Shown piece by piece: positions 3,006 to 63,834 of a DNA stretch of 64,000 nt (positions are counted from its first letter, which is position 1; every line of letters starts with the position of its first letter). The DNA is taken from contig OX597815.1 of assembly GCA_951406725.2 (NCBI GenBank), forward strand, positions 24,428,001 through 24,492,000, written 5' to 3'. This DNA comes from Octopus vulgaris (Eukaryota). Below the pieces are notes generated by a model. The model saw nothing but the letters and a program-made list of their open reading frames with translations. It made no database searches and was not told the DNA's origin. A program made the position numbers and the translations under genes.

Positions 3006-3086
3006 ATGGCCAAAGAAGCAGAAGAAATTGTTCGGAAGGTTAACGAAATCCTCGGCCCATTTGGTTTTGAGGCGCATCCCTTCAAA
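3006..3086 (+). CDS. MMACHC: MMACHC/CblC homologue copy A, exon 1 (MAKEAEEIVRKVNEILGPFGFEAHPFK)
   Basis: ATG at 3006; 27 codons align to the human MMACHC N-terminus (LCPFGFEVYPFQ); donor GTACGT at 3087, phase 0, same position as human intron 1 (after c.81). Confidence 0.93.
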
Positions 3087-11828: not shown

Positions 11829-12029
11829 GTAAAATGGTACAATGAACTTGTTGGACCAAACTATCAACTTGAATACCATGATGATACTTTCGCATTAATT
11901 ACCATCAGTACTCCTCAAATGTTTGAAAAAGCATTCAAACCATTCATTTATAATATCTATAAAAAAGGTGATTTAGCTCCTATTGATCATTGTGTTAAGT
12001 ATTATACGGAGAAAATACAAATACAAACG
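11829..12029 (+). CDS. MMACHC: MMACHC homologue copy A, exon 2 (VKWYNELV...STPQMFEKAFKPF...PIDHCVKYYTEKIQIQT)
   Basis: Pyrimidine tract plus TTGCAG acceptor, GTAAGT donor at 12030; matches human VAWYNELL / STPAMFDRALKPF / PVDQCV; 201 nt, phase 0. Confidence 0.95.
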
Positions 12030-14605: not shown

Positions 14606-14752
14606 GTTTATCCTGATACAGATCTGATATATGACTTTGACCAGAAGGCTCCTCAACATTACAGTATACTAGTACAAACAGCTGCACATGTTGCTGGTGC
14701 TGCATATTATTATCAAAAGAAGGATGTGATAAATAATCCTTGGGGAGATAAG
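14606..14752 (+). CDS. MMACHC: MMACHC homologue copy A, exon 3 (VYPDTDLIYDFDQKAPQHYSILVQTAAHVAGAAYYYQKKDVINNPWGDK)
   Basis: TTTTCAG acceptor and GTTTGT donor; contains the family signature QTAAHVAGAAYYYQ and PWG; not in the ORF track, read manually. Confidence 0.96.
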
Positions 14753-15676: not shown

Positions 15677-15985
15677 ACCATCTTTGGAATTAGTATTCAT
15701 CCGCAATATGGTGGCTGGTTTGCTATAAGAGCTGCTATTATCTTTAAAAATCTCAAGTTTGCAGACTTAAAGAAGAAAGACCCAGTTGATGTTATACCAG
15801 ATCAAGAGACTAGAATAAAACTACTAAACATGTTAAATGAAGATTGGGAATATTGGAAAGCTCGTGACATAATAAAAGTGTCTGAAAGATATACAGCAGA
15901 GGCCATTAATTATTTCAAAACACTTCCCAAAGATAGGTACAAATTAATTGAAGATATGCAGGCAAACAGGAAGAACAATGCTTAA
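15677..15985 (+). CDS. MMACHC: MMACHC homologue copy A, exon 4 (TIFGISIHPQYGGWFAIR...WKARD...ERYT...NYFKTLPKDRY...NA*)
   Basis: TTTCAG acceptor; IHPxxGGWFAIR, WxxWxxRD and ERY motifs; TAA at 15983-15985. Spliced protein is 245 aa with no frameshift or internal stop. Confidence 0.96.
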   Translation, partial: TIFGISIHPQYGGWFAIRAAIIFKNLKFADLKKKDPVDVIPDQETRIKLLNMLNEDWEYWKARDIIKVSERYTAEAINYFKTLPKDRYKLIEDMQANRKNNA

Positions 15986-24755: not shown

Positions 24756-27700
24756 GAAAATTTTCGGGGAATATTTTCGGGAAATTTTGGGGGAAAATTT
24801 TCAGTGAAAATTTTCAGAGAATTTTTGGGGAAAATCTTCGGTGAAAAGTTTCAAAAATTTTTGGAGAAAATTTTCTGAAAATTTTTGGATAAAATATTCG
24901 GTGAAAATTTTCGGGAAATTTTCGGGTAAAATTTTCGGTGAAAATTTTCAGAAATATTTGGGGAAAATTTTCGATGAAAATTTTCGAAAAAGTTTTGGTC
25001 AAAATTTTGGAAAAGGTTTTGGGGAAAATTTTTGAAAGATTTTCAATAAAAATTTTTGGGTAAAATTTTCGGTGAAAATTTTGGAAAAAGTATGGAAGGC
25101 CAGCGGTGCAAAAATCACAAAGTATGGAAGGCCAGCGGTGCCAAAATCACAAAGTATGGAAGGCCAGCGGTGCCAAAATCACAAAGTATGGAAGGCCAGC
25201 GGTGCCAAAATCACAAAGTATGGAAGGCCAGCGGTGCCAAAATCACAAAGTATGGAAGGCCAGCGGTGCCAAAATCACAAAGTATGGAAGGCCAGCGGTG
25301 CCAAAATCACAAAGTATGGAAGGCCAGTGGTGCCAAAATTTTTGGTAAAAATTGCGAAAAATATTTGGAGAAAATTTTCGAAAAATATTTGGGGAAAATT
25401 TTCGAAAAATTTTTATGGAAAATTTTCGGTGAAAATTTTCGAAAATTTTTGGGTAAAATTTTCAGTGAAAATTTTCGGGAAATTTTCGGTGAAAATTTTG
25501 AAAAAGATTTTTGGGAAAATTTTTAGAAAATTTTCTCCAAAAATTTTTCGACAATTTTCACCGAAAATTTTCCCCACAAATTTTCTGAAAATTTTCACCG
25601 AAAACTTTTCGAAAATTTTCAGAGAAAATTTACCCCGAAAATTTTCTGAAAATTTTCATCAAAAATTTTACCCAAAAACTTTTGGAAAATTTTCACTGAA
25701 GTTTTTGGGTAAAATTTTCGGTGAAAATTTCGAAGAATATTTGGGGAAAATTTTTGAAAGATTTTCAATAAAAATTCTTGGGTAAAATTTTCGGTGAAAA
25801 TTTTGGAAAAAGTATGGAAGGCCAGCGGTGCAAAAATCACAAAGTATGGAAGGCCAGCGGTGCCAAAATCACAAAGTATGGAAGGCCAGCGGTGCCAAAA
25901 TCACAAAGTATGGAAGGCCAGCGGTGCCAAAATCACAAAGTATGGAAGGCCAGCGGTGCCAAAATCACAAAGTATGGAAGGCCAGCGGTGCCAAAATCAC
26001 AAAGTATGGAAGGCCAGTGGTGCCAAAATTTTTGGTAAAAATTGCGAAAAATATTTGGAGAAAATTTTCGAAAAATATTTGGGGAAAATTTTCGAAAAAT
26101 TTTTATGGAAAATTTTCGGTGAAAATTTTCGAAAATTTTTGGGTAAAATTTTCAGTGAAAATTTTCGGGAAATTTTCGGTGAAAATTTTGAAAAAGATTT
26201 TTGGGAAAATTTTTAGAAAATTTTCTCCAAAAATTTTTCGACAATTTTCACCGAAAATTTTCCCCACAAATTTTCTGAAAATTTTCACCGAAAACTTTTC
26301 GAAAATTTTCAGAGAAAATTTACCCCGAAAATTTTCTGAAAATTTTCATCAAAAATTTTACCCAAAAACTTTTGGAAAATTTTCACTGAAGTTTTTGGGT
26401 AAAATTTTCAGAAAATTTTTGTATAAAATTTTCGAAAAATTTTTGGAGAAAATTTTCGAAAGATATTTGGGGAAAATTTTGGAAAATTTTTATGGGAAAT
26501 TTTCGGTGAAAATTTTTGGGTAAAATTTTCGGTGAAAATTTCGAAGAATATTTGGGGAAAATTTTTGAAAGATTTTCAATAAAAATTCTTGGGTAAAATT
26601 TTCGGTGAAAATTTTGGAAAAAGTATGGAAGGCCAGCGGTGCAAAAATCACAAAGTATGGAAGGCCAGCGGTGCCAAAATCACAAAGTATGGAAGGTCAG
26701 CGGTGCCAAAATCACAAAGTATGGAAGGCCAGCGGTGCCAAAATCACAAAGTATGGAAGGTCAGCGGTGCCAAAATCACAAAGTATGGAAGGCCAGCGGT
26801 GCCAAAATCACAAAGTATGGAAGGCCAGCGGTGCCAAAATCACAAAGTATGGAAGGCCAGTGGTGCCAAAATTTTTGGTAAAAATTGCGAAAAATATTTG
26901 GAGAAAATTTTCGAAAAATATTTGGGGAAAATTTTCGAAAAATTTTTATGGAAAATTTTCGGTGAAAATTTTCGAAAATTTTTGGGTAAAATTTTCAGTG
27001 AAAATTTTCGGGAAATTTTCGGTGAAAATTTTGAAAAAGATTTTTGGGAAAATTTTTAGAAAATTTTCTCCAAAAATTTTTCGACAATTTTCACCGAAAA
27101 TTTTCCCCACAAATTTTCTGAAAATTTTCACCGAAAACTTTTCGAAAATTTTCAGAGAAAATTTACCCCGAAAATTTTCTGAAAATTTTCATCAAAAATT
27201 TTACCCAAAAACTTTTGGAAAATTTTCACTGAAGTTTTTGGGTAAAATTTTCAGAAAATTTTTGTATAAAATTTTCGAAAAATTTTTGGAGAAAATTTTC
27301 GAAAGATATTTGGGGAAAATTTTGGAAAATTTTTATGGGAAATTTTCGGTGAAAATTTTTGGGTAAAATTTTCGGTGAAAATTTCGAAGGGAAAAGTTTT
27401 GAAAGATTTTCAATAAAAATTCTTGGGTAAAATTTTCGGTGAAAATTTTGGAAAAAGTATGGAAGGCCAGCGGTGCAAAAATCACAAAGTATGGAAGGCC
27501 AGCGGTGCCAAAATCACAAAGTATGGAAGGCCAGCGGTGCCAAAATCACAAAGTATGGAAGGCCAGCGGTGCAAAAATCACAAAGTATGGAAGGCCAGCG
27601 GTGCCAAAATCACAAAGTATGGCAGGGTGCAAAATCACAAAGTATGGAAGGTCAGCGGTGCCAAAATCACAAAGTATGGAAGGCAGCGGTGCCAAAATCA

Positions 27701-30390
27701 CAAAGTATGGAAGGCCAGCGGTGCCAAAATCACAAAGTATGGAAGGCCAGTGGTGCCAAAATTTTTGGTAAAAATTGTGAAAAATATTTGGAGAAAATTT
27801 TCGAAAAATATTTGGGGAAAATTTTCGAAAAATTTTTATGGAAAATTTTCGGTGAAAATTTTCGAAAATTTTTGGGTAAAATTTTCAGTGAAAATTTTCG
27901 GGAAATTTTCGGTGAAAATTTTGAAAAAGATTTTTGGGAAAATTTTTAGAAAATTTTCTCCAAAAATTTTTCGACAATTTTCACCGAAAATTTTCCCCAC
28001 AAATTTTCTGAAAATTTTCACCGAAAACTTTTCGAAAATTTTCAGAGAAAATTTACCCCGAAAATTTTCTGAAAATTTTCATCAAAAATTTTACCCAAAA
28101 ACTTTTGGAATGGGTAAAATTTTCGGTGAAAATTTTGAAGAATATTTGGGGAAAATTTTTGAAAGATTTTCAATAAAAATTTTGGGTAAAATTTTCGGTG
28201 AAAATTTTGGAAAAAGTATGGAAGGCCAGCGGTGCAAAAATCACAAAGTATGGAAGGCCAGCGGTGCCAAAATCACAAAGTATGGAAGGCCAGCGGTGCC
28301 AAAATCACAAAGTATGGAAGGTCAGCGGTGCCAAAATCACAAAGTATGGAAGGCCAGCGGTGCCAAAATCACAAAGTATGGAAGGCCAGTGGTGCCAAAA
28401 TTTTTGGTAAAAATTGCGAAAAATATTTGGAGAAAATTTTCGAAAAATATTTGGGGAAAATTTTCGAAAAATTTTTATGGAAAATTTTCGGTGAAAATTT
28501 TCGAAAATTTTTGGGTAAAATTTTCAGTGAAAATTTTCGGGAAATTTTCGGTGAAAATTTTGAAAAAGATTTTTGGGAAAATTTTTAGAAAATTTTCTCC
28601 AAAAATTTTTCGACAATTTTCACCGAAAATTTTCCCCACAAATTTTCTGAAAATTTTCACCGAAAACTTTTCGAAAATTTTCAGAGAAAATTTACCCCGA
28701 AAATTTTCTGAAAATTTTCATCAAAAATTTTACCCAAAAACTTTTGGAAAATTTTCACTGAAGTTTTTGGGTAAAATTTTCAGAAAATTTTTGTATAAAA
28801 TTTTCGAAAAATTTTTGGAGAAAATTTTCGAAAGATATTTGGGGAAAATTTTGGAAAATTTTTATGGGAAATTTTCGGTGAAAATTTTTGGGTAAAATTT
28901 TCGGTGAAAATTTCGAAGAATATTTGGGGAAAATTTTCTCTGAAAATTTTCGAAAAGTTTTTGGGTAAAATTTTCGGTGAAAATTTTTAGAAAATTTTTG
29001 GGTAAAATTTTCGAAAATTTTCAGAAAATTTTTAGGGAAAATTTTCGGTGAAAAGTTTCGAAAAATTTTTGGTGAAAATTTTCGAAATATTTCTGGGTGA
29101 AATTTTCGAAAAACTTTTCGGTAAAATTTTCGGAAAATTTTTGGATAAAAAGTTTTCGAAACTTTTGACCAAAAATTTTTCGAAAATTTACACGGAAAGT
29201 TTTCCCAAAAATTTTTCGAAAATTTTCACTGAAAATTTTACCAAAAACTTTTCGAAAATTTTACTCAAAAAGTTTTCGAAAATTTTCCCAAAAATTTTTC
29301 AGAAATTTTCACCGAAAATTTTACCCAAAAATTTTTGGAAAATTTTCTAGAAATATTTTTCGAAAATTTTCCCCAAAAATTTTCCGAAAATTTTCTCCAA
29401 AAAATACTTCGATTTTTCGAAAATTTTTGCCATACCTTGTGATTTTGGCAACGCTGGCTATCCATACTTTGTGATTTTGGCTCTGCTGGCCTTCCATACT
29501 TTGAGATTTTGGCACCGCTGGCCTTCCATACTTTGTGATTTTGGCACCGCTGGCCTTCCATACTTTTTCCAAAATTTTCACCGAAAATTTTCCATGAAAA
29601 TCTTTGGAAAATTTTCCCCAAAAACTTTTCCAAAATTTTCACAGAAAATTTTCCATAAAAATTTTTCGAAAATTTTAAACAAAAATTTTTCGAGAATTTT
29701 CTCTGAAAATTTTCCCCAAAAATTTTTCAAAAATTTCCACCGAAAATTTTGCACAAAAATTTTCACCGAAAATTTTCCTCAAAAATCTTTCGAAAATTTT
29801 CCCCAAAAATTTTTTGAAAATTTTCCCCAAAAAATTTTCCAAAATTTTGACCGAAAATTTTGCATAAAAATTTTTCGAAAATTTTACACAAATTTTTTTG
29901 GAAAATTTTCAATGAAAATTTTCACCGAAAATTTTCTGCAAAAATTTTTCGAAAATTTTAGCCGAAAATTTTTGCCGAAAATTTTCCCCAAAAATTTTTT
30001 TAAAATTTTCACTGAAAATTTTACCAAAAACTTTTCGAAAATTTTCACCGAAAATTTCACCCAAAAATTTTTCATAAATTTTTCACCGAAAATTTTCCCC
30101 AAATATTTTTCGAAAATTTTCCCTGAAAATTTTACCAAAAAATTTTTCGAAAATTTTCCCCGAAAATTATCTCCAAAAAGTACTTTGTGATTTTGGCAAC
30201 GCTGGCTATCCATACTTTGTGATTTTGGCACCACTGGCCTCCCATACTTGAGATTTTGGCACCGCTGGCCTTCCATACTTTGTGATTTTGGCACCGCTGG
30301 CCTTCCATACTTTGTGATTTTGAAACCGCTGGCCTTCCATACTTTTTCCAAAATTTTCACCGAAAATTTTCCACAAAATTTTTGGAAAAT
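24756..30390. repeat. Modular higher-order satellite: GAAAATTTTC-rich matrix with blocks of a 32-bp repeat, distal part inverted
   Basis: 32-mer AAAGTATGGAAGGCCAGCGGTGCCAAAATCAC in + blocks near 25091 (x8), 25813 (x7), 26624 (x8), 27458 (x10) and 28217 (x6), and in - blocks at about 29430-29565 and 30180-30345. Confidence 0.96.
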
Positions 30391-31284: not shown

Positions 31285-31728
31285 ACCTATTAATAAAGGA
31301 CGAAGCAGAGCAGATGCTAAAAACTATGGGCCTATGTCTCTGACCTCACACATCAGCAAAGTCATGGATGACTTTGACTTGTCTCTTCTCCGACAATTTT
31401 TTGTCTCTTCTCCAACAATTTGTGGTTTCATATTTTGGCACAAGGCCTGAAATTGTTAGAGAAGAGACAAGACAAGTCTGAGGGAAACTAATTACATTCT
31501 TTGAAGAAAATGACTTGCTGACTGACACCTAGCATGGTTTTTGACCAGATAGAAGCTGCCTGATACAGCTCTTGCAGCACTATGACTGGGTGTTAGAGCA
31601 GCTGCTCAACAACTCAAAGGAGATCATGATATATCTCCACTTTGCAAAAGCCTTTAATAAAGTCAACCATGGTATGGTATATGTCACAAGTTGCATAATC
31701 TTGTCATTGACAAAAAACTTGGAGAGTG
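31285..31728 (+). mobile_element. CR1-type LINE reverse-transcriptase fragment, decayed
   Basis: PINKGRSRADAKNYGPMSLTSHISKVM ... HGF*PDRSCLIQL ... IYLHFAKAFNKVNH ... KLGE, with stops. Confidence 0.85.
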
Positions 31729-33406
31729 TGTGTGTTTTTATTGGCTAAACTGGCAAAATGACCATTCCTAAATGCAACAACAACATATATATATATATGG
31801 AGCTCTAAAATGTGCGAGTTAATATATATATACATACACACACACATATATATATATATTCGATGATAATGATGATAATGATATCATCATCATCATCAGC
31901 ATCATCGTTTAACATCCACTGTCCATGCTAGCATGGGTTGGACGATTAACTCGCACATTTTAGAGCTTCATTATTCAGGAGCAAAATCCTTTGAACAGGT
32001 TCCATTAGATTTTAATTTTGGAATCTGGGCATTAAGATGAATAGTATGAGATAAATATGTCATACAATTGAGTGGGCAAACAAAAATCTGAGACACTGCC
32101 TTGAAGAATTTTTTTATTTAGATAAGCTTGGTACTATCAGTCGCTTTTTGTCAAACCAGTAAGTTATGGGGATGTAAATAAACCAACAGCAGTTGTCAAG
32201 CAATGATGAGGGAGAAACCCAGAGACAAAGACACATAATACACTTACATATATACATATACTCTTTTACTTGTTTCAGTCATTTGACTGCGGCCATACTG
32301 GAGCACCGCCTTTAGTCGAGCAACTCGACCCCAGGACTTATTCTTTTCGTAAGCCCAGTACTTATTCTATCAGTCTCTTTTTGCCGAACCGCTAAGTGAC
32401 GGAGGACATAAACACACCAGCATTGGTTGTCAAGCAATGCTAGGGGAACAAACACAGACACACAAACACACACACATACATATATATATACATATATACG
32501 ACAGGCTTCTTTCAGTTTCCGTCTACCAAATCCACTCACAAGGCATTGGTCGGCCCGGGGCTATGGCAGAAGACACTTGCCCAAGATGCCACGCAGTGGG
32601 ACTGAACTCGGAACCATGTGGTTGGTTAGCAAGCTACTTACATATACAATTGATTTCTTTCAGTTTCTGTCTATGAAATCCACTGACAAAGCTTTGGTTG
32701 GTCTGAGGCATATATAGCAGAAGACACATGCCAAGTTACCACACTGTGGGACTGAACCCAGGACCATGTGTTTTGGAACCAAGTTTCTTACCACACAGCC
32801 ACACCTGCACCCTTATATATGTGTGTGTGTGTGTGTGTGTATGTATGTGTGTATATATATGTATGTATATGTGCATGTATATATATATATCTATCTCTTA
32901 TGTATAAATGTATGTGCGCATATATATATATATATAGGTATATGCGCACATATATATATATAAACATATATATATAGTAAGCACATATACATATATAAAA
33001 ACACACATAAATACGCACACATAAACAAACACACACACACATATATATATATATATACATACACACACACAAGCACATATATACATACACTCACTTACTC
33101 ACGCACGCACACACACACACGCGCGCATACACACACATACACATATTGACTCCTGCTAGAAGTCAATTTGTGTATATATATATATATGTACATATTACAT
33201 ATACGTATATATATATATATATATATATACATACGTGTGTGTGTTTCTTCAATGCAAGGCCTAAGCACAGACAAATTTGGCATGAAAGCTTTTCATTGCT
33301 CGAGGAATTTTCTAGCAGGATTCAATATGTGTTTGTGTGTGTATGTGCGCGCGAGCGTGTGTGTGCGTGCGTGAGTAAGTGAGTGTATGTATATATGTTT
33401 GTGTGC

Positions 33407-33464
<58 letters not shown>

Positions 33465-33711
33465 TTGTTTATGTGTGTGTTTATATATGTATATATACTT
33501 ACTTATGTCTGTATATACATGCAACTTTTCTTAGAAATTTGAATTCCAAGAAAAAATTATTTACTAAAGATTTACGTAAACCACGCCTCACGCCTTTGTA
33601 TGCTGTTCGTAGAATATGCCTGTGTGTGTTTGTGTGTGTGTGTGTGTCAAATATATATATATATAGCATCTCGTAAGATCTACGCACGCAGACACACAAA
33701 GCTCCGTAACA
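31725..33711 (+). repeat. Exon-less third copy of the MMACHC upstream region
   Basis: Matches 48795-50793 (and 366-2931); stops about 75 bp before the ATG-equivalent position. Confidence 0.93.
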
Positions 33712-38094: not shown

Positions 38095-39556
38095 ACGACT
38101 AATAGAGAAAGTAGTCTTTACATGTGGCAGAAGTACAGGCCCATTAAACACCAAGAATGTACAAAAAATAGACTCCCTTATATGCCAGGGGAGATCCCTA
38201 GAAGTAGTAAACAATTTCCATTACTTAGGTGATCAAGTTAGTAGTAGGGGTGGTTGTTCCAAAAGCATAGCCTTTCACTCTGAGGGAGAGGCCTTTCATT
38301 ACTAACAGAAGTAGTAGCTCTCTGAACTTCACTCAGCCTATTCTTCTGAGGGAGAGGCCTTTCATTACTAACAGAAGTAGTAGCTCTCTGAACTTCACTC
38401 AGCCTATTCTTCTGAGGGAGAGGCCTTTCATTACTAACAGAGGTAGTAGCTCTCTGAACTTCACTCAGCCTATTCTTCTGAGGGAGAGGCCTTTCATTAC
38501 TAACAGAAGTAGTAGCTCTCTGAACTTCACTCAGCCTATTCTTCTGAGGGAGAGGCCTTTCATTACTAACAGAAGTAGTAGCTCTCTGAACTTCACTCAG
38601 CCTATTCTTCTGAGGGAGAGGCCTTTCATTACTAACAGAAGTAGTAGCTCTCTGAACTTCACTCAGCCTATTCTTCTGAGGGAGAGGCCTTTCATTACTA
38701 ACAGAAGTAGTAGCTCTCTGAACTTCACTCAGCCTATTCTTCTGAGGGAGAGGCCTTTCATTACTAACAGAGGTAGTAGCTCTCTGAACTTTGCCAGGCC
38801 TATTCTTATTCAATAATAGGCTGAGTGAAGTTCAGAGAGCCACTACCTCTGTTAGTAATGAAAGGCCTCTCTCTCAGAGTGAAAGGCAGAGTGTATGATG
38901 CCTGTCTATGAACAGCTATGCTACATGGCAGTGATATATGGGTTGTGACTACTGAGAATATGTGAAGATTTGAAAGAAATGAAGCCAGTGTGCTCCACTG
39001 GATGGTGAATGTCACATATGACAGAGTGTGAGTGATTTGAAAGAAAAACTGGGTATACTTAGCATCAGATGTAGTGTGCAAGAGAGAATACTGCGCTGGT
39101 GTGGCCATGCAACATGTATGAATGGGGACAGTTGCATCAAGGGGTGCTGATCTCTAATTGTAGAGGGAACATGTGGAAGGGGTAGATCCAGGAAGACATT
39201 GGACGAAATGGTGAGAAAGGATCTACAAACATTGGGACTCACAGAGAGGATGACAGGAGACCAAGACTCCTGGCAGTTTGCTGTGCTTGAAAAGACATGT
39301 CAAGCTAAGTAAAAGCATGGTTGTCCTTGCATACAGGCTCATCAGAGCATTCCTAATCTCATGGGCTCATAAGCACTGGTGCCATGTAAAAAGCATCCAG
39401 TACACTCTGTAAAATGGTTGGCATTAGGAAGGGCGTCCAGCCATAAAAACTGTATCAAAACAGACATAAAGCCTAAACAGCCCTTCAGCTGGTCAACTCC
39501 TGTCAAACCGTCCAACCCATGCTGGCATGGAAAGCAGACATTAAATAATGATGATG
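38095..39556 (+). mobile_element. Older RTE-X-like LINE copy, interrupted by a minisatellite
   Basis: Decayed homologue of 22294-23575 ([33 protein letters not shown]) ending in the same tail. Confidence 0.85.
38270..38810 (-). repeat. 66-bp minisatellite x8 derived from an inverted LINE segment
   Basis: TGAGGGAGAGGCC at 38281 and every 66 bp up to 38743; the unit is the reverse complement of about 38815-38887. Confidence 0.95.
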
Positions 39557-50866: not shown

Positions 50867-50947
50867 ATGGCCAAAGAAGCAGAAGAAATTGTTCGGAGGG
50901 TTAACGAAATCCTCGGCCCATTTGGTTTTGAGGCGCATCCCTTCAAA
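50867..50947 (+). CDS. MMACHC: MMACHC homologue copy B, exon 1
   Basis: Identical to copy A exon 1 except AAG>AGG (K11R); GT donor at 50948. Confidence 0.93.
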
Positions 50948-53900
50948 GTACGTGAGTTAACAATTATATATATATATTTGATGCAGCACGGGTTTTTTTT
51001 TTCAGTGAACAGGTCGCGGATTTTAGCGACGAAAATATTTTGACAAATTAAACTTAAATGTTGGAGTGAATCGAACGGCTTTTGTGTGTTTCTTAAATGG
51101 CTTACAAACACCTTCCACGCTGCAATTGTTTTCGTTCCAGCACACGATCTCAGATCAAATCACTTGCTATGCGAGTACATCTCCCTATATATTTGTTTCT
51201 TTGTCTTTAGTGACATAGAGTAAACAAATCGAAAACAACGGATGTTTGGGTGATAGCACGTGCTGGCCATTTTACGCAATTTATTTTGTTGACAGAATTT
51301 GCGGTTAATTCTTATTTGCCTTCATATGTCATATGTAAAACTATGGAGATGTGGATCACACCTGCTCGTTCGGCCAATGTGGATCACACCTGCTCGTTCG
51401 GCCGATGTGGATCACACCTGCTCGTTCGTATTGTAAGTCAGCTCTAGTTGGGGGCTGACTTAAGTTGCTCAATAGTATTTGGTTGTGTCATTCTCTGGGG
51501 GCGCATTTTCAAATGGTTTTGTCTCTTACACTCTCCTCTCTTTGTAAATAAGTACTTTACTGGTGAACTGGGTGTGGTCGCATACTAGAGTGTTTTGTAT
51601 ATTCTACAGACTTTATTTTAACTGATTGTTTAACTACTCGTTAAGGACTGTTTTGAAAATTGAGTTCTGTTTTATTAGTGTTTATATTTTCGTCTAGAAT
51701 TATAAATTTGACAGTCTTTCGGCACATCCTTACTGAAATCACTGACCTTGATATATTTAGATCCATATATATGTCACTTGAGGCTATCTTTCTATGGTCA
51801 GGAAAAGCGGATACTTGTATATTAATAAAAAGGGTGGGAACTCGTTAGAGGTCGGGAAAATGTTTAGTGACGTTTCTTCCGGCGCTTTAGGTTCCGAGTT
51901 CAAATTCTACTGAGATCTTCGCCTTTGGGAGGCGATGAAGCAAGCATCAGTCAAGTCCTGAGTTCGATATAATTGACTTAACCGTGCCCTTATTATTGCT
52001 GGCCTTGTGTCTAAATTAGAAAGAATTATTTATCAATATCAATGAAATACATATAATTAACAAAAATATATTTCATTAGCGACATACCTACACAATTGTG
52101 CCCCACCGACTTTATCTCCTCATAACTTCCAGAAAATTGGATATTTTTAATGAAATTGTCAACAAATACGCTTTAGATGGTGTTGATTCTGATTATATCA
52201 GAAATTGTTGTGAAAAACAAAAAAAAACAGAACAATTCCCGACGGTGGGGAGAAGAGTTTCGGTAAATTCACACGAGTCAGTTTTGTTTCCTCATAACTT
52301 TAAGAAAAACATATTTTTTAATGAAATTTTGTACAAGCATCTTTCAGAGTAAATTACCATTATATCCGGATATGATATAATGGCTCCTTTGTGAGCCGCT
52401 CTCCGGCTATCTATCTGCGGCTTTATATAGCTATGGTACAACCTCACCTGGAATTTGCATCACCGGTCTGGAACCCCTATCTTGCCCAGGATATTAATCG
52501 TCTGGAAGCCGTTCAGCGACGTGCAATCAAAAGAATACCCTCCATCAGGCATTTGCCATATTCTGAACGCCTTACTTCCCTGGGCCTGGACACATTGAAA
52601 CTCCGACGTCTGGCAGCTGACTTGGCAGACACCCATGAAATTATTAACCATCTTACTAACAATAATTCTGAGCACCTTTTCAAACTCCACCTGTGTAACA
52701 TCCCTGGACATGTTTACAAAGTCAGAAAACAACACAGCTCTCATGACTTTCGGAAACATTTTTTCACGCTTAGAGTTGCTGAAGCATGGAACAAACTGCC
52801 GGCATCGGTTGTCGGAGCACTGCATCCTTCAAAACTTCCATGCTACCTGAGATTCGCCAACACTACACCTGATTTTCTCCACTCCATACACACGCAAGCA
52901 TGTATATGACTGATACACTGTTCACTTTCCAGACATTTGTACATTACTGCATATGCTTTATACGCACTTTTGACAATTTGTGGTGCACCTGAGCACTGTA
53001 TACAATAATTTCATTATATATATATATATGATGTGAAAAGAAAAACGGTGAGCGCGCACACACATACACATTTCTTTTCGGAATTCTAAGTTTCACTCTA
53101 TAAATGTATGTGATTGTGTGTCAGTATGTATGTGTGAGAGCCCACTATCTTTTCGGTCTTTATTATCCGATATAAACGTAATCTACACATTCTGAAAGAT
53201 GTTTGTTGAAAATTTCATCAAAACTAATGTAGTTTTCTGAAAGTTATATTGGCGATCTTTCGTCTCTAGTAGACCTTTCCGTCGATTTCCGTAAAAAATT
53301 ATTTTTTTTTACATATGGGCTTGCGGGAACTTTTGAAGTAATGAGAGCGAAAGAGACTAAGAGAAAGCGATTGTATGACGAGGGAAGTTCTCAGTTATCT
53401 CTCTCTTTCACACATTACTCTCTCTGTCTCTTCACACACACTAACAGAAGCACTTCACTTATACAACATACTGTCTGTCTCCCACACCCCATCAAACACA
53501 CACACACACACACACACATGTACATCAATGCTTCCCCTGGACGGTAACTTCAAAAGAACTTCCCTCGTCATAAAATGGCTTTCTCTTAGTCTCTTTCGCT
53601 CTCATTACTTCAAAAGTTCCCGCAAGCCCATATGTAAAAAAAAGAAATTTTTTTACGGAAATCGACGGAAAGGTCTACTAGAGACGAAAGATCGCCATAG
53701 GCGGTACTTTGTAGGTATGCCTCTTTAGTTCGGTAAAGGAGATTTTATGAGGTTCCCGTCTTTTTCAACTGAATTATGTACGAAAGAGAAAATGTTTTTT
53801 TTTTCCTTTTTTTTTTCTTTTTATCAGTAATCGAAGTTTGATTTCGGAATCCAAATACATAAACAGTTGTAAACTTTATATATAAAAGTGAAGTTGTGTG

Positions 53901-54790
53901 TCTGTCTCCTACGATTTAGATTCCTAACTACTCCCACATTTTGCGGTGCAGTTTAACCAAAACCGGGTATCTTATAGTCGTGATTCATATCGAGCCCTTC
54001 TGGGTATTAGCGCGCGTCTACGATGAGTCTACGATTTTAAAAAAATTTACCATCATTTTTTCCATTTTAATGCATTTTTGGCATATATAAGGGAAGTAAC
54101 TCTCTAAAAATGTCTACGATGAGTCAACGATTTAAAAAAAAATTTACCATAATTTTTTTCCCATTTTTAATGCATTTTTTTGGCTATAACTCTCTAAAAA
54201 TGCTTATATAGTTATTTCCCTTACAAGCCCGAGCAACGCCGGGCGATACTGCTAGTTTTTTTATAACACTTAACCATCATACTACCATCTTCTATGCAGA
54301 CCCGGATATGAAGAAACTAAATAGTACGAGCTGATGAAAACAAGATCCCGCAAGAAGTGTTGTGTTCCGAAACAGATAAATCGGCACTCTTTCGTTTTAA
54401 CCGGCTGTGACGCAGTGTCGTTTGACATCTTGCCCATTTCAACGTTTTTATCAGCAGCTGTTATTATTGTTGGTTCCCCGAGCCAACATTGATCAAATAC
54501 ACTCCAGCTGTGATATTGATTTTTTAATTTTTATATAGGACAATATTATTAGCCAACGTTTCCTTTCTTTAAAAGTGATGAGAATGGGATACGAGCGACA
54601 TTTGGCTGCTGTTTCTAATGTCTATGTAGAGACTTCATTGTTTCCACAGATCATCTCTGATCAAACAGATCTGTAACCACCCTGTCCTTTCTGCTTCCCT
54701 TATTCTCTTTCTTTTTCCTTTCTTTCTTTTATTCTTTCTTTCCTCCTTTCTTTCTTTCTCTCTTTCTTCCTTTCTTTCTTTCTTTCTTTT

Positions 54791-54875
<85 letters not shown>

Positions 54876-54902
54876 CTTTCCTTCTTTCCTTCCTTCCTTC
54901 CT

Positions 54903-54937
<35 letters not shown>

Positions 54938-55018
54938 CTCTCTCTCTTTCTTTCTCTCTTTCTTTCTTTCTTTCTTTCCTTCTTTCCTTTCTTTCTTTCT
55001 TTTCCTTCCTTCCTTCCT

Positions 55019-55066
<48 letters not shown>

Positions 55067-58000
55067 TCCATGGTGTAAGCAGAGGGCTCCACCATAATCT
55101 GGTTGATATTTTTGATTTTTTTAAAAAATACCTTTATTTTAGGATGGGATATTGTATTTTCTTTTTTATGTAAACTATCAAATTTAGCCTTAATACCCAG
55201 TAGGTCTGAATACTTAAACTCATCTTTTCTTTTCGTTTTTCTGAGGAAAATAAATCAGTTGTACCAATCTATCTCTTCTTTTTAGAGTTGGTGTAGTAAT
55301 ATTTGGATTTATGTAACAACAATGTTGTTTGAAGATTGATTTAAAAAATGATTTTGTAAATAACTTGACACTCTGAAAAAGGCTAATTGAATGCCAAATG
55401 TATTGGCATTCACAAGTTTCACTTCTAAGCAGGTAAAAGAAAATAAACCCCAAGAAACTATAAAAATCCATGGAAAAATATAAAAGATTGAATTAACCTG
55501 TAAGGCTCAGTTGTTAGTGTACACAAATTCTGTTGTTGTAATATCCAGCAGTCATGATTAGAATAAGTTTTGCTGACGAGGTATTATTAGACCGACTGAA
55601 AATTTACCTAAGTTGTCACAGTAACCCTGAAGATCACACTCACCTGCACTGCATTCCATATTTAATTAACTGTAACTAATTAAAAAAATTTCAAGGTGTC
55701 ATCACTGCCATTTGTTTTTTACCCCAAGTAACTATTTATAAAATTAAAATGATTACCAGGCCCTGGCGTCCAATGGGTTTAAGGACTGCATCTCCTAAAT
55801 GTTGGGCCCTAGCACCTGCAAAAGGAAGCGCCAGTGGAACATCATTTGGTTTACCCCCACCTTTCTCACTCAGTGTTAAAACTTGTGTGGGAAAGTCCTG
55901 GCATCCAGTGGGTTTAAGGACTGCATCTCCTATATGTTGGGACCTAGCACCTGCTAAAGGAAGCGCCAGTAGAACATCATTTGGTTTGCCCCACCTTTCT
56001 CACTCAGTGTTAAAACTTGTGTGGGAAGGCCCTGGCATCCAATGGGTTTAAGGACTGCATCTCTTATATGTTGGGACCTAGCACCTGCAAAAGGAAGCGC
56101 CAGTGGAACATCATTTGGTTTGCCCCACCTTTCTCACTTGTGTGGGAAGAATATTCCTTAGGTTAGCAGACAAGCACTGTATGCAGACACATGGGTACAG
56201 ACACTTGTTCAATAGGCACAACCTAAGGGTCCCCTTAAGTTGCACTCCCAACATAAAATGAGTACTGGTAAGCAGTCATGGAAAGCGAGCAGAGGCTGGT
56301 TGCTCATGCAGTGGGTACAACGACTGCCCAGTGATGCAAAACTATTGGTCACTCTATGACTAGACATATATTTAACTTCATGTAAATACTTTACTGCTCT
56401 AACTTTAGAGCAGTGGTTTTCAACCAGAGTTCCGTCAGTACAGTCCAGGGGTTCCGCAAGAAATTACAAAAATGCTAAAATCGACAGTAATTTTTAATTC
56501 TCCTGTGCAGATATGTGTGCATAAGACAATTAAATTATTGCACAGGGGTTCCTCGAGCCAGTGGAATGTTTCCTTGGGGTTCCGCTCCAGCAAAAAGTTT
56601 GAAAAGCACTGCTTTAGAGTGTGCTTCTGTTTTGGATATATGATCCACTGACAATATACAGGGTCATCAAAAAAGGTTTCTGTGATTTCAGAATGAAATA
56701 ATTAACTTTGTATTAAAGGCATACTATTTATTTATACACCAAAACACAGAAAATCTGGCTGTGTGGCAAGTAGCTTGCTTACCAACTACATGGTTCCGGG
56801 TTCAATCACACTGCGTGGCACCTTGGGCAAGTGTTTTTAACTATAGCCTTGGGCTGACCAAAGCTTTGTGAGTGGATTTGGTAGACGGAAACTGAAAGAA
56901 GCCCGTCGTATATGTGTGTGTGTCTGTGTTTGTCCCCCCTCAGCATTGCTTGACAACCGATGTTCGTGTGTTCACGTCCCCGTAACTTAGCGGCTTGGCA
57001 AAAGAGACCGATAGAATAAGTACTAGGCTTACAAAGAATAAGTACTGGGGTCGAATTGTTCAACTAAAGGCGGTGCTCCAGCATGGCTGCAGTCAAATAA
57101 CTGAAACAAATAAAAGAATAAAAGAAAAAAGAACATTATTTAGTAGGTTTCGATATGAGCTCACTTTGTTGCCCAGCAAACATCTAAGGAATACTCGACC
57201 TCCCTCTAGGTGTGCTGAATCATATCAGGATTCACAGTTGCTATCGCCACATGGATTCTCTCTCTTAAATGTTGCCGATCCCAAATTTTTTCTGTATTAT
57301 CTTCAGATAACCCCAAAGAAAAAGTCCATAGGAATTAGATCAGGGCTTTTAGGTGGCCCCAAAACAGGACCATTCCTTCCAATCCAATGGCCAGGGAATC
57401 TGTTGTTGAGAGCTTAAATTGTCACGCATTATTGCTGCAGTGAGCCAGCTGGAAAATTACACTTACTCCTTTCTCTCTTCAATGTTTGCAATTTGACAGA
57501 ACACATAAATTTCCAACATGTCCAAGTAACTAGCGCCCATAATCATGTTTTCTGCAAACATGAAAGAGCCGACAGCATGATCATGCAACAGTCCACACCA
57601 CACATTAACCCTGGGTGAATCATGGACGTACTGGCAAACTTTATTGGGTTGCTGAGCTCCCCATATCCGACTGTTATGTCAGTTAACAATCATTTATGTG
57701 GAATGTTGCTTCATCACTAAATAAAATTCTGTTAAGATAACTATCAGTGTCATGAATTTCTCTCGGCATCATTACAGCAAATTCATTTCATTTAGGCCTA
57801 TCTCTCTCCTTAATTTTATGCTTCATTTGAATTTTGTAAGCATGCAGTCTTAGGCGTTTATGCAGCACATTTTGAATTGTTGTTTTAGGCATACGAATTT
57901 CCAAACTATGTCAAGCAATGGACTTCTTAGGACTACACAAGCATGACAGTCTCAGACGCTCCACATTCTCTTTCGATGTGTGTGGCCAGCCTGGAGGTTT

Positions 58001-59682
58001 CATAATGTTTACATTCCCAGTTTCTTTAAACTGGTTAAACCAACGAACAATGGTTTTGTAGCAATATTGCTTTCTTCATTGCTATCTTCACTGTTTGAGA
58101 AAAATATTAAGAATGATCTCGTTTGAGATTACAAACATCTTTGGCTAGTTTAACCTTGTTGTGTCCACTGATCTGATTGGTTAGCATCTAAGCGTGGTCT
58201 GTCTCTCTACTTATAACGCAAATATTATAAGCATGCATTCATGACACAACACTACGCTAATAATAACAAATCACTTTGTACACTGTGAATAAAATCTATC
58301 TTCTCTTTATAAAAGTAGAACGGTTTTTGGCGTCCTTGATTCATTTACTTTGGCACTGTATATAAAACATGTATTATGGCCAATATAACATTATGTTATG
58401 TTATGTTATGTTGGGATGCGGCCGTGCACTGAACAAGAGGAGCAATATGTCACCAAACATCTCACATACAGTCGTATACCAACATAGTTTTGTTTGTAGG
58501 TGGATCTTGTCCATAAGTTTGGCGAAAATGCCGCTGCACTAAAACAACTCACTTAAACTCAGTGTACCACAACACACACTGTGCTTTCTGCTATACAGCC
58601 GCCATGTTTGGTGTGAAGTAATTGGCCAGTGGCAAATATTAAATCTCCTACAGTTGTTATTCAGTCCCACGTTGATTTCATGCACATCACTTGCTTATAG
58701 CTAGTGCAATTGACAACTAAAACCACAGAAACCTTTTTCGATGACTCTGTGTGTGTGTGTGTGTGTAGGTATTTATATATGTACATATACATGCACACAT
58801 ACATATATTCAATAAATTATTGAGTACTTATATTTTCATCATGTAATTTTACAATGAAACCTATTGAATGTTATTTGATTTTGCAGCATGTTTTATTGCT
58901 ATGGAACTTTCTCTTGCACCTTCTTCCCTTAAAACTTTTATTTTGTCCTTTTTTTTTAAACTAGTATAATATTTTAATAAATTTCAAGATTTAAAAAAAA
59001 AAGTGTAATCTGTTTTAACAACTGGATGCATTTTCACCCTCCGAACCAATTCTCAGATATATTTGTGTGTATGTATTTGTTTGTGTTGTTTGCTTGTGTA
59101 TCAACACTTTTTTAGTCAGTAGTTGTGCTTGTCTGTTCCAACAGCTCAACAGCAGTTCCAATATGCAAAGACCAGTGGAAATGAAGTGTCTTACTTGAAA
59201 ACAGCAAGGGTTGGTGTCAGTAAGAGCACCCAACCATTGAATACTGCCACAATTACAACACATCCAATAAGTGCCAGCATGGAAAAAGTAAACCTAAAAA
59301 CTATCTGGCACCTGTGTCCGTGGCACATAAAAAAAAAACACCATCCGAGCGTGGCCGTTGGCCAGCCTCGTCTGGCACCTGTGTCCGTGGCACATAAAAA
59401 AAAAAACACCATCCGAGCGTGGCCGTTCGCCAGCCTCGTCTGGCACCTGTGTCCGTGGCACATAAAAAGCACCCACTACACTCACGGAGTGGTTGGCGTT
59501 AGGAAGGAGGGCATCCAGCTGTAGAAACACTGCCAGATCTGAATGGCCTGGTGCAGCCTTCTGGCTTCCCAGACCCCAGTTGAACCGTCCAACCCATGCT
59601 AGCATGGAAAGCGGACGTTAAACGATGATGATGAATGTATATATTTACTGACTTTTGATTTTAATTATTCTTTCTCTTGCAG

Positions 59683-59877
59683 GTAAAATGGTACAATGAA
59701 CTTGTTGGACCAAACTATCAACTTGAATACCATGATGATACTTTCGCATTAATTACCATCAGTACTCCTCAAATGTTTGAAAAAGCATTCAAACCATTCA
59801 TTTATAATATCTATAAAAAAGGTGATTTAGCTCCTATTGATGATTGTGTTAAGTATTATACGGAGGAAATACAAACG
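59683..59877 (+). CDS. MMACHC: MMACHC homologue copy B, exon 2
   Basis: 195 nt, the same length as human exon 2; differs from copy A by CAT>GAT (H>D), AAA>GAA (K>E) and absence of a 6-nt ATACAA duplication. Confidence 0.95.
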
Positions 59878-62453
59878 GTAAGTTTCGTATTGTAACATTC
59901 ATTGTAGTGGTGAACAATTCTTGCATAAAGTTTGTCAGAAAATTGGGTCATGCAGTTTAATATGATGGGTTGTAGTTATACTCATGGTTGAGAAAGGGTT
60001 CCTCCATAGGATCCCTATAGTAAAATCATGAGCACGCACACGCCCATGCACACACCCACACACACACACACATACACACACACACACACACACACATACA
60101 CATTTTTTTCGGAATTTTAAGTTTCACTCTATAAATCTATGTGATTGTGTGTCAGTATGTATGTGTGAGAGCCCACTATCTTTTCGGTCTTTTTTTTTTT
60201 TTTCATATTAAAATCCGATATAAACGTGGGAAGCTTGGAGATCATGGAGTCTCTCCAGGTCAAGCCACTATTTTTCTGCATTGAGAGGTCACAGCTCCAG
60301 TACTATGGACGTGTGATTAGAGCTTTGCAAAAAAGGATCACCAGACAGTCTTCAAGCTGAGCCAACCAGCAGGAGGTCTAGGGGTTGACCAAGAACAAGA
60401 TGGTTGGGCAATATTCAGGGTTGGTCACACTTGGGAATCCAACAGGATACTGCAATGACAATTGATTCTGATAGGACCCTATTGAGGAGATAACTGAAAA
60501 CTCTACCCTAATGACCCTTTTAGGAATAGTTGGTGGAAAAGATAAATGGATGAGTTGTAGCACAGCACAGTGTTGTGATGAAGGAGAGAAAGAAATATTG
60601 TAAATCAAAAGAATAGTGTTAGTATAAAATGTTATGGTTGAATGGAATGATAAGTGGTATATAAAATAATAATGTAATATATAATATATAATGTAATAAT
60701 GTAATGGAAGCACTCCGTCAGTTACGACGACGAGGGTTCCGGTTGATCCAATCAACGGAACAGCCTGCTCGTGAAATTAACGTGTAAGTGGCTGAGCACT
60801 CCACAGACACGTGTACCCTTAACGTAGTTCTCAGGGATATTCAGCATAACACAGAGAGTGACAAGGCCGGCCCTTTGAAATACAGGTACAACAGAAACAG
60901 GAAGTAAGAGTGAGAGAAAGTTGTGGTGAAAGAGTACAGCAGGGATCACCACCATCCCTGCCGGAGCCTCGTGGAGCTTTAGGTGTTTTCGCTCAATAAC
61001 CACTCACAACGCCCGGTTTGGGAATCGAAACCGCGATCCTACGACCGCGAGTCCGCTGCCCTAACCACTGGGCGTAAGTATTATGAAACAATGTCAGTAT
61101 TTTACTTAGTGTTACAATATGCTGTGTCATGTGATATCACCATGTACAATGTTCCATTGTATAGGACATGTAACAATATTACTGGTGAGCTGGCAGAAAC
61201 GTTAGCACACCGGATGAAATGCTTAGCAGTATTTCATCTGCTGTTATGTTCTGAGTTCAAATTTCACCAAGGTCGACTTTGCCTTTCACCCTTTCAGGGT
61301 CGATAAATGAAGTACCAGTTACACACTAGGGTTGATGTAATCGACGTAATCCGTTTGTCTGTCCTTGTTTGTGCCCTCTGTGTTTAGCCCCTTGTGGTTT
61401 GTAAAGAAATAGACATATAATCATTATAATTTTAATGTCCACTTTTCCATGCTAGCATGGATCAGATGGAATTTATTGTGGCAGGTTTCCTATGTCTGGA
61501 TGCCTATCTTGTCAGCACTTTTCATCTGTTTCCCAGTAAAGTAGTTTTCCCCATGGCCAGACATATTTTCACAGAAAACTGGAAATGAATAACATCACAT
61601 TAATGATAGTGATGCTTACTTCTCCTATCACATGATGTCAAAACAAGGAGATACAAACACACACATATTTACATCATCATCATTATCATCATCGTTTAGC
61701 GTCTGTTTTCCATGCTAGCATGGGTTGGACGGTTCTACTAGGGTCTGTGAAGCCAGAAGGCTTCATCAGGCCCAGTCAAATCTGGCAGTGTTTCTACGGC
61801 TGGATGCCCTTCCTAACGCCAACCACTCCGTGAGTGTAGTGGGTGCTTTTACACGTATAATGAGCTTTCAGTTTCTGTCTATCAAGTCCACTCAGAAGGC
61901 TGTAGATGGTGTGGGGCTATACTAGTGGACACTATACAGGAAGGGCATCCAGCTGTAGAAACACTTCCAGATCAGACTGGAGCCTGGTGCAGCTTCCTGG
62001 CTTCCCAGACCCCGGTCAAACTGTCCAACCCATGCTAGCATGGAAAACGGACATTAAATGATGATGATGATGATGATGATGAATCAATTATAAAAGGATT
62101 CAAATAGTTGATCAAGATGCCTTTTAGTTGGGAACCAAACTTCTTAACCACACATTTATGCCTGTGAAATATTGTTTTCAAATGCTTGTAAGTTACCCTA
62201 GAATTGGTTGATCCTTTATCCTATCTCGTTGGATGTGGTTGTTTTGAAAGCATTGTAACAATGTAAGAATGGATTAAAAAATATCAGGAAATAATTATTG
62301 TTGTTAGCAACAAAATAATTCTCTTTTTATGTGAATGGCATATATTACGATTTCAAAACTTGACTTCATGTATACTTTCCTTTATATTTATGCTAGTAGT
62401 TTTAGCTCAAATATTGATCTTAATTCTGAATTTCATTTGCTCTCTATTTTCAG

Positions 62454-62600
62454 GTTTATCCTGATACAGATCTGATATATGACTTTGACCAGAAGGCTCC
62501 TCAACATTACAGTATACTAGTACAAACAGCTGCACATGTTGCTGGTGCTGCATATTATTATCAAAAGAAGGATGTGATAAATAATCCTTGGGGAGATAAG
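62454..62600 (+). CDS. MMACHC: MMACHC homologue copy B, exon 3
   Basis: Identical to copy A exon 3, with intact AG/GT sites. Confidence 0.96.
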
Positions 62601-63525
62601 GTTTGTTATTTGATGTTGCTTTTATCAAATTTATTGTTATTGTGGTTTCATAGCTTGTAGCTGTTAACTCTACAAGATTAATGAAATAAAAACCAGTAAT
62701 AATCTAATGTCAATTTATTGATAATCAAAAGATCAAATGGAAATTGTAGATGTGATACTTGTGCCGGTGGCACATAAAAAGCACCATCTGAACGTGGCTG
62801 ATGCCAGCGCCGCCTTCACTGGTTTCCATGCCGGTGGCACATAAAAAGCTCCGACTGATCGTGACTGTTGCCAGCCTTGCCTGGCACCTGTGCCGGTGGA
62901 ACATAAAAAGCACCCACTACACTCACGGAGTGGTTGGCATTAGGAAGGGCATCCAGCTGTAGAAACATTGCCAGATCAGACTGGAGCCTGGTGCAGCCTC
63001 CTGGCTTCTCAGACCCCGGTCGGACTGTCCAACCCATGCTAGCATGGAAAACGGACATTAAACGATGATGAATCAGTTATAAAAGGAAATGTCCATTTTA
63101 CTCTGTGAAATTAAATGAGCATTTAAACTATTGTCAATACTGTAACATGTATTGATTTACTAATGTGTATTATTTATCATTTTATAAATCTTTATAGATG
63201 TTAGCTGAAATTTATATACTGGAAATTAGGTTTTGATTTTAGGATGATGAAAGTATTTAAAAATCCTTACTGAAAAGTACAATATCCTGAGTTTTTATAA
63301 TTACTGCATAGGAAACTCTGTTACAATACATTCATCTAATGAATGATTTTCACCATACTATACAAATCCTTATATTCTTTTTTACAGAAAACAAAAAAAC
63401 AAAAAAAAGGAAGATGAAGACAAACAATTAACAAATTCTTTTTCTATTTATTCACTTTGATATTGTAATGTTTATTAACAGACACAAGAACCTGGAAAAA
63501 TTATTCATTTTCTTTACTATTTCAG

Positions 63526-63834
63526 ACCATCTTTGGAATTAGTATTCATCCGCAATATGGTGGCTGGTTTGCTATGAGAGCTGCTATTATCTTTAAAAAT
63601 CTCAAGTTTGCAGACTTAAAGAAGAAAGACCCAGTTGATGTTATACCAGATCAAGAGACTAGAATAAAACTACTAAACATGTTAAATGAAGATTGGGAAT
63701 ATTGGAAAGCTCGTGACATAATAAAAGTGTCTGAAAGATATACAGCAGAGGCCATTAATTATTTCAAAACACTTCCCAAAGATAGGTACAAATTAATTGA
63801 AGATATGCAGGCAAACAGGAAGAACAATGCTTAA
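63526..63834 (+). CDS. MMACHC: MMACHC homologue copy B, exon 4
   Basis: Same as copy A except ATA>ATG (GGWFAIR>GGWFAMR); TAA at 63832-63834; spliced protein is 243 aa. Confidence 0.96.
   Translation, partial: TIFGISIHPQYGGWFAMRAAIIFKNLKFADLKKKDPVDVIPDQETRIKLLNMLNEDWEYWKARDIIKVSERYTAEAINYFKTLPKDRYKLIEDMQANRKNNA

What the first reader, a model, noticed from the sequence alone, without database searches (positions are those of the whole stretch)
14633..14700. MMACHC homologue that lost the PNRRP active-site-capping loop but kept the arginine pocket
Seen: the spliced protein aligns without gaps as DFDQKAPQHYSILVQTAAH against human DYEVHPNRRPKILAQTAAH, so PNRRP (109-113) becomes APQHY. Human WRDWTYRD becomes WEYWKARD. 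Residues equivalent to D104, H122, G147, G156/W157, R161, R189, W200/W203, R206 and R230 are kept, the frame is open and the intron positions match human. Known: in human MMACHC the PNRRP loop is domain-swapped to cap the partner active site, and R161/R206/R230 form the glutathione pocket. Inference: this may be a functionally shifted CblC paralogue (changed oligomer state, flavin use or corrinoid specificity) rather than the housekeeping orthologue. The human alignment is from memory.
Basis: partly seen in the sequence, partly recalled or inferred. Interest (0 to 1): 0.75.

Follow-up and report, generated by a model that had tools for sequence, protein, structure and literature searches.

The report
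Octopus B12 enzyme's rewired docking loop
This octopus gene is most likely the animal's ordinary vitamin B12-processing enzyme rather than a side copy: it has swapped out a positively charged loop that nearly all other sampled animals keep, and its partner protein has lost the facing negative patch, so the two have possibly re-tuned or loosened their contact together.

Summary
Human PNRRP (109-113) aligns ungapped to APQHY; D104, H122, Q131, G147, R161, R206 and R230 are kept; the gene is spliced. The change is rare: 104 of 108 non-cephalopod homologues keep two basic residues at 111/112.

The paralogue reading is not supported. Three canonical queries found no RRP copy in the genome. This gene and its 99.3%-identical tandem twin are the only copies found with the arginine triad. 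The shifted paralogues are a cluster on contig C7, which this scan noted before (e1-8666843). MMADHC, mutase and methionine synthase genes match elsewhere in the genome.

New here: in the human complex this loop contacts MMADHC E194, and octopus MMADHC has lysine there (acidic in 26 of 32 control patches, basic in none). The loop also varies among octopus samples (APQHY, APRLY, APQLY).

Likely a housekeeping CblC whose loop contacts became dispensable or were rebalanced, with the cobalt-sulfur bond holding the pair together (inferred). MMADHC changes are not enriched at the interface (p=0.34), so general drift remains open.

The parts
3006..3086 (+). MMACHC copy A, exon 1 (codons 1-27)
   Evidence: translation identical to named record P0126
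11829..12029 (+). Copy A, exon 2 (codons 28-94); holds D77->A and D80
14606..14752 (+). Copy A, exon 3 (codons 95-143); D104, H122, Q131
   Evidence: covered by spliced contigs
14633..14671 (+). Protrusion-2 loop, residues 104-116, with APQHY at 14648-14662 in place of PNRRP
14655..14668 (+). Three variable sites among public runs: 14655 A/G (Q111/R), 14658 A/T (H112/L), 14668 A/T (silent)
   Evidence: R-L form also in O. sinensis record P0125
14753..15676 (+). Intron 3, 924 bp, GT..AG
   Evidence: skipped by one contig in each of 4 of 4 runs
15677..15985 (+). Copy A, exon 4 (codons 144-245 and stop); G147, R161, W200, W203, R206, R230 kept; D202->Y, S216->T, Q219->A
50867..63834 (+). MMACHC copy B (243 aa): exons 50867-50947, 59683-59877, 62454-62600, 63526-63834; same APQHY loop
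   Evidence: translation identical to named record P0124
1040..22293 (+). Duplicated block, 99.4% identical to window 48892 onward (21.3 kb, runs past the window end); real tandem duplication or uncollapsed haplotype not decided

Best explanation
This is likely the octopus's working, cytosolic B12-processing enzyme (MMACHC/CblC), whose partner-binding loop has lost its arginine-arginine-proline motif while the facing acidic patch of its partner MMADHC has also gone, so the pair is predicted to rely mainly on the cobalt-sulfur bond for hand-over. Shown: intact spliced gene, catalytic arginines, loop substitution, no other triad-intact copy found, MMADHC E194K with C261/C262, R197 and E244 kept. 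From the human literature: B12 binds base-off, glutathione held by R161/R206/R230 removes the upper ligand, MMADHC C261 then binds the cobalt, and loop 104-116 adds minor contacts. Inferred: octopus keeps this cycle; constraint on the loop relaxed or was rebalanced in the octopod line, after the family had duplicated in cephalopods; the AdoCbl-capping homodimer is probably weaker or differently built.
For: Only C2 (two copies) and C7 match three canonical queries, and the C2 pair gives the best score for the full-length chiton protein and the Pfam model (for the short exon-3 piece one C7 copy scores 43.2 bits against 42.8). All 9 C7 exon-4 matches have Pro at 161 and none has Arg at 206. MMADHC, methylmalonyl-CoA mutase and methionine synthase families match on C27, C9 and C12. 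Exon 3-4 spliced contigs in 4 of 4 runs from 4 studies. Pfam MMACHC 265 bits over the whole model; model pLDDT 95, TM-score 0.90 and rmsd 1.3-1.6 A to human structures. Human N110A/R111A lowers MMADHC affinity only modestly, the Co-S bond is the main tether, and no patient missense maps to the interface (PMC12501144 passages). Octopus MMADHC position 194 is Lys in three species' records; 26 of 32 distinct control patches are acidic and none basic. Net charge of patch 190-196 is -2 or lower in 29 of 32 controls and +1 in octopus (counted from that output); MMACHC loop 104-114 is -1 here and 0 or higher in 107 of 108 controls. The loop has three states among 7 covering runs.
Against: The loop is under strong constraint elsewhere, including C. 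elegans, which keeps QRRP, so it matters in most animals. Human deletion of 109-111 reduced dealkylation and abolished the MMADHC complex (PMC4705923), though that is a deletion. D77A, D202Y, S216T and Q219A hit further conserved columns; the protein departs at 13 of 70 conserved columns against a control median of 3. Octopus MMADHC changes are not enriched at the interface (5 of 15 against 11 of 46, p=0.34), and Argonauta's loop changes are not enriched either (p=0.25), so general fast drift explains part of the pattern. MMADHC controls are unnamed loci, not paired with their own MMACHC. The assembly may be incomplete and only the best candidates are scored. No activity was measured.
Confidence: 0.65

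Rival explanations
1. Housekeeping gene, but with a real biochemical shift: without the capping loop and D77 it no longer forms the AdoCbl-induced swapped dimer, handles AdoCbl or glutathione differently, or accepts other corrinoids.
For: The loop caps the adenosyl group of the partner subunit in the human dimer (PMC13320084 passages citing Froese 2012). Changes cluster in the loop (p=0.002). D77 contacts glutathione in simulations (PMC10740964) and is Ala here.
Against: Most characterised CblCs, with the loop, are mainly monomers, and C. elegans CblC lacks D77/D80 (PMC11910325 passages). O. bimaculoides-type P0130 keeps D77 with the same APQHY loop. The loop varies among octopus samples, which fits relaxation better than a fixed new function.
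Confidence: 0.2
2. One reading: a functionally shifted paralogue, with a canonical PNRRP copy doing the housekeeping elsewhere.
For: The family is expanded in cephalopods, and this gene groups with the divergent cephalopod copies (95/96). A cuttlefish counterpart with an intact triad was not seen in my samples.
Against: No RRP copy in three genome searches; no octopod RRP protein among the named hits or the looked-up hits. All other copies found lack R161.
Confidence: 0.06
3. The B12 pathway is decaying in octopus and the gene is drifting towards loss.
For: Both MMACHC and MMADHC depart at many conserved columns (13 of 70; 16 of 61).
Against: Open frames, all 13 columns invariant across alignment A2 kept including the triad, spliced contigs, MMADHC cysteines kept, client enzyme genes match (their integrity not checked).
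Confidence: 0.05
4. A-to-I RNA editing restores the arginines: Q111 (CAA) and H112 (CAT) are each one A-to-G change from Arg codons.
For: Codons as stated; A>G at 14655 seen in 4 of 7 covering runs. Extensive recoding in coleoids is recalled, not from a call.
Against: In all 4 runs the A>G travels with two A>T changes, which editing cannot make; the O. sinensis annotated record carries the same R-L; 14658 goes to T (Leu), never G; P113 and K114 cannot be restored this way. Contigs drop rare variants, so low-level editing is not excluded.
Confidence: 0.03

Closest known systems
Human MMACHC/CblC (Pfam PF16690; PDB 3SOM, 3SC0, 5UOS, 7WUZ)
   Same: About 40% identity, colinear; same predicted fold (TM 0.90); same three introns within two codons; D104, H122, Q131, G147, R161, R206, R230 kept.
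   Different: PNRRPK becomes APQHYS; D77A, D202Y, Y205A, S216T, Q219A; no long C-terminal tail; two near-identical tandem copies.
Human MMACHC-MMADHC complex (PDB 9MRS; PMC12501144)
   Same: Octopus MMADHC keeps M186, R197, E244, C261, C262.
   Different: MMACHC N110, R111, R112 are replaced (R111 present in some alleles); MMADHC W189F, S190N, E191I, E192N, E194K, L259I, G260I, K263H.
C. elegans CblC (PDB 5UJC) and Trichoplax CblC (PMC11910325)
   Same: Short invertebrate CblCs with the arginine triad; C. elegans also lacks D77 (paper passage).
   Different: C. elegans keeps the RRP loop; neither is described with a changed partner patch in the passages read.
Cephalopod divergent MMACHC paralogues (C7 cluster; cuttlefish P0128, P0286, unnamed P0288)
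   Same: Sister group in the tree (95/96); also lack RRP.
   Different: They lose R161 and D104; several have hydrophobic N-terminal extensions that look like signal peptides (judged by eye). The window gene has neither feature.

Membership tests
MMACHC/CblC family (PF16690) | Full-length profile match above the curated cut-off | tested here: met
   264.8 bits, positions 1-216 of 216, cut-off 27
MMACHC/CblC family (PF16690) | Modified nitroreductase fold of CblC | tested here: met
   Predicted model pLDDT 95.2; TM 0.90, rmsd 1.3-1.6 A to 3SOM and 7WUZ; a prediction, not a solved structure
MMACHC/CblC family (PF16690) | Glutathione arginine triad R161, R206, R230 | tested here: met
MMACHC/CblC family (PF16690) | Conserved B12-pocket residues D104, H122, Q131, G147 | tested here: met
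MMACHC/CblC family (PF16690) | Four-exon structure with phase-0 introns near c.81, c.276, c.429 | tested here: met
   against PMC9464900 splice variants; intron 2 two codons off in copy A
MMACHC/CblC family (PF16690) | Glutathione-dependent dealkylation and flavin-dependent decyanation | not testable with these tools
   needs recombinant protein
Housekeeping CblC orthologue | Only catalytically complete copy in a genome with MMADHC and both client enzymes | tested here: met
   limited by assembly completeness and candidate scoring
Housekeeping CblC orthologue | No N-terminal extension for secretion | tested here: met
   aligns to mammalian MMACHC from residue 1; no signal-peptide predictor was run
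Housekeeping CblC orthologue | B12-dependent complex with MMADHC | not testable with these tools
   needs B12-loaded proteins; MMADHC C261/C262 are present
Canonical RRP-type animal CblC (subtype, not filed here) | Basic-basic-Pro motif at 111-113 | tested here: not met
   Q/R-H/L-Y in Octopus; 104 of 108 controls have both basic residues, 107 have P113
Canonical RRP-type animal CblC (subtype, not filed here) | D77 in the glutathione site | tested here: not met
   Ala; Asp in 98% of 93 controls
Canonical RRP-type animal CblC (subtype, not filed here) | AdoCbl-induced domain-swapped dimer | not tested
   no homodimer model or assay was run
Divergent cephalopod MMACHC paralogues (C7 type; rejected) | Loss of R161 and D104 | tested here: not met
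   both kept in the window gene; lost in C7 copies

The most novel reading that the evidence does not exclude
Octopus has rebuilt the CblC-CblD interface by a reciprocal charge swap (CblC loop from +1 to -1, CblD patch from -4 to +1), giving a species-specific docking code that still segregates in populations; octopus CblC would pair with octopus CblD but poorly with human CblD, a natural test of how far the Co-S bond alone drives B12 hand-over.
Probability: 0.25. Interest if true: 0.6.

Novelty: new variant of a known kind. Interest (0 to 1): 0.38.

Why it matters
MMACHC is the most often mutated gene in inherited B12 disorders, and the role of its loop (homodimer cap or MMADHC docking) is unsettled. 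Octopus offers a natural housekeeping enzyme without the motif and a partner without the facing acids. Cross-species pairing would test directly whether the dimer and these contacts are needed. It does not point to a new enzyme; the more radically changed family members are the C7 paralogues already noted by this scan.

Tried and rejected
Complex prediction of octopus MMACHC with the MMADHC C-terminal domain: no verdict, score 0.00; alignments were not used and B12 cannot be included; not counted either way. RNA editing as a rescue of RRP: rejected for the majority sequence. A separate RRP copy: not found; a C8 Pfam match at E 0.7 with stops gave nothing convincing. Enrichment of MMADHC changes at the interface: not significant. 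Run search listed no holder on record as RNA; run X17 did not cover exon 3. The 74-row tree finished only in quick mode with long-branch warnings; the 28-row careful tree replaced it; no one-clade test was run and the root is midpoint. A direct search for MMADHC proteins gave only 3 hits, so metagenome loci served as controls. Atlas search only confirmed the MMADHC family. Froese 2012 and Ruetz 2017 were not held. Literature: no paper with MMACHC+PNRRP or MMACHC+octopus; searches listed nothing on this question. Whether copies A and B are a true duplication was not decided.

Full report
What is there. The window (G000:C2:24428001-24492000) holds two copies of a four-exon MMACHC gene: copy A (exons 3006-3086, 11829-12029, 14606-14752, 15677-15985; 245 aa) and copy B (50867-63834; 243 aa), in blocks 99.3-99.4% identical. 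Their translations equal named Octopus vulgaris records P0126 and P0124. Both read APQHY where human PDB chains read PNRRP, without gaps. Copy A is colinear with a mammalian MMACHC over 240 residues. Pfam MMACHC scores 265 bits; the predicted model (pLDDT 95) matches human structures at TM 0.90. One contig in each of 4 of 4 laid runs joins exon 3 to exon 4 across the GT..AG intron; the runs are only guessed to be RNA, but the joint shows spliced molecules.

How unusual the loop is. Of 121 proteins, I removed 7 cephalopod rows and 6 that lacked the loop or the arginine triad. Of the 108 left, 104 have basic residues at both 111 and 112, all have at least one, and 107 have P113 (the one without P113, P0004, is a mis-predicted row whose front half is not homologous). 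This set was gathered by shared words with the octopus query and is rich in vertebrates. Among 142 further, more distant representatives, 69 had loop and triad: 42 had both basic residues, 63 at least one, 6 none; one of those six is named as the sponge Sycon ciliatum. C. elegans keeps QRRP. So the motif is strongly conserved but not universal. In the window protein 5 of 7 conserved loop columns differ against 8 of 63 elsewhere (p=0.002). O. bimaculoides has APQHY, O. sinensis APRLY and Argonauta GGYPK.

Orthologue or side copy. Searches of the genome with a canonical chiton protein, a canonical bivalve exon-3 piece and the Pfam model returned only the C2 pair and a cluster at C7:58.64-59.06 Mb. 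The C7 exon-3 matches read MLG(L/P)GHP or are more diverged, and lack D104; all 9 exon-4 matches have Pro at 161 and none has Arg at 206. The genome has MMADHC on C27, mutase on C9 and methionine synthase on C12 (integrity of the last two not checked). In a 28-row tree the octopod C2 genes form one group (100/97), sister to the divergent cephalopod copies (95/96 together, midpoint root, no clade test, long-branch attraction not excluded). The simplest reading is duplication within cephalopods, with this gene the branch that kept the catalytic pocket. An earlier scan report reached the same view of C7 (e1-8666843); I had found the cluster before seeing it. A cuttlefish triad-intact copy was not seen, but clustering at 50% could hide one.

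What the loop does in human. It caps the adenosyl group of the other subunit in the AdoCbl-induced dimer (PMC13320084, 12 passages), although most characterised CblCs run mainly as monomers (PMC11910325, passages). Deleting 109-111 reduced dealkylation and abolished the MMADHC complex (PMC4705923, abstract and 12 passages; also PMC9464900, passages and section 21). The 2025 complex structure shows N110, R111 and R112 contacting MMADHC M186, E194, R197 and E244, finds only a modest loss of affinity for N110A/R111A, names the Co-S bond from C261 as the main tether, and finds no patient missense at the interface (PMC12501144, 12 passages). Froese 2012 was not held and is known here only through these papers. 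No supplements were read; the PNAS supplement may hold an MMADHC alignment that bears on E194.

The partner. Octopus MMADHC keeps M186, R197, E244, C261 and C262, but human S190-E-E-V-E194 aligns to N-I-N-V-K, with Lys at 194 in records of three species. Of 66 metagenome loci, 38 cover the patch, 32 distinct: position 194 is E or D in 26, never K or R, and the net charge of 190-196 is -2 or lower in 29; the other three align poorly. Octopus is +1 and human -4 (counted). The MMACHC loop goes the other way: -1 here, 0 or higher in 107 of 108 controls. Against a specific co-evolution: octopus MMADHC differs at 16 of 61 conserved columns, with no enrichment at the interface (5 of 15 against 11 of 46, p=0.34; 23 controls kept at 50% identity or more); the controls are unnamed, related to each other and not paired with their own MMACHC.

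Variation within octopus. Of 8 laid runs, 7 cover exon 3: four give APRLY, two APQHY and one APQLY. These three sites are the only differences listed inside exon 3, and no difference is listed in exon 4 of the four runs laid on it. Two of the three are A>T, so they are alleles or copy differences, not editing. No run restores RRP.

Mechanism, committed. The protein likely binds B12 base-off, strips the upper ligand with glutathione on R161/R206/R230 and hands the cofactor to MMADHC through the C261 Co-S bond, as in human (inferred from conserved residues). The loop's salt bridges became dispensable or were rebalanced once the facing acids changed; which change came first is unknown. I put 0.65 on this, 0.2 on a housekeeping gene with materially changed chemistry or dimer state, 0.06 on a side paralogue, 0.05 on decay and 0.03 on editing.

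Novelty. The gene is annotated in public records as cyanocobalamin reductase. I found no paper on octopus MMACHC or on this loop change (subscription journals are mostly not searched). It is a new variant of a known enzyme; the paired change in MMADHC is the part worth testing.

Noticed in passing
G000:C7:58.64-59.06 Mb (L003-L011, L014-L018): Cluster of at least nine MMACHC exon-4 copies lacking R161 and R206, one with an in-frame stop, several with mixed exon types; already noted by this scan (e1-8666843, e1-8666844).
   Followed up: partly
P0081, P0128, P0286, P0288 (cuttlefish-clustered and unnamed records): Divergent MMACHC proteins with hydrophobic N-terminal extensions, extra cysteines and N-x-T/S sites, judged by eye to be secreted; the C7 first exons have an AG just before the ATG, so an upstream signal exon may be missing from the annotation.
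   Followed up: partly
P0078, P0093, P0132, P0133 (Crassostrea virginica) and the front half of P0127 (cuttlefish): A separate divergent group with Asp at R161 and a broken loop; oyster and cuttlefish members group together (94/98), either an old molluscan paralogue or convergence.
   Followed up: partly
G000:C27:7577414-7589178 (L053-L054; P0290): Octopus MMADHC N-terminus aligns poorly with an unnamed canonical-looking homologue, and the Cys hairpin has G260I and K263H; mitochondrial targeting was not tested.
   Followed up: no
window 24756-30390: Mixed satellite of a 32-bp unit and AT-rich 13-61-bp units with inverted parts, lying between the two gene copies and partly repeated past the window end.
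   Followed up: no
window 31725-33711: Third, 97-98% identical copy of the region just upstream of exon 1, ending before the start codon; nested repeated blocks at 33.7-48.9 kb suggest a complex duplication or misassembly.
   Followed up: no
L070:6055-6435 (+) and L067:878-1240 (-): Flanking genes: a myosin-tail gene upstream and the 3' end of an inositol trisphosphate receptor gene downstream on the opposite strand.
   Followed up: partly
window 38279-38807: 66-bp tandem repeat, 8 copies, 98% matches.
   Followed up: no
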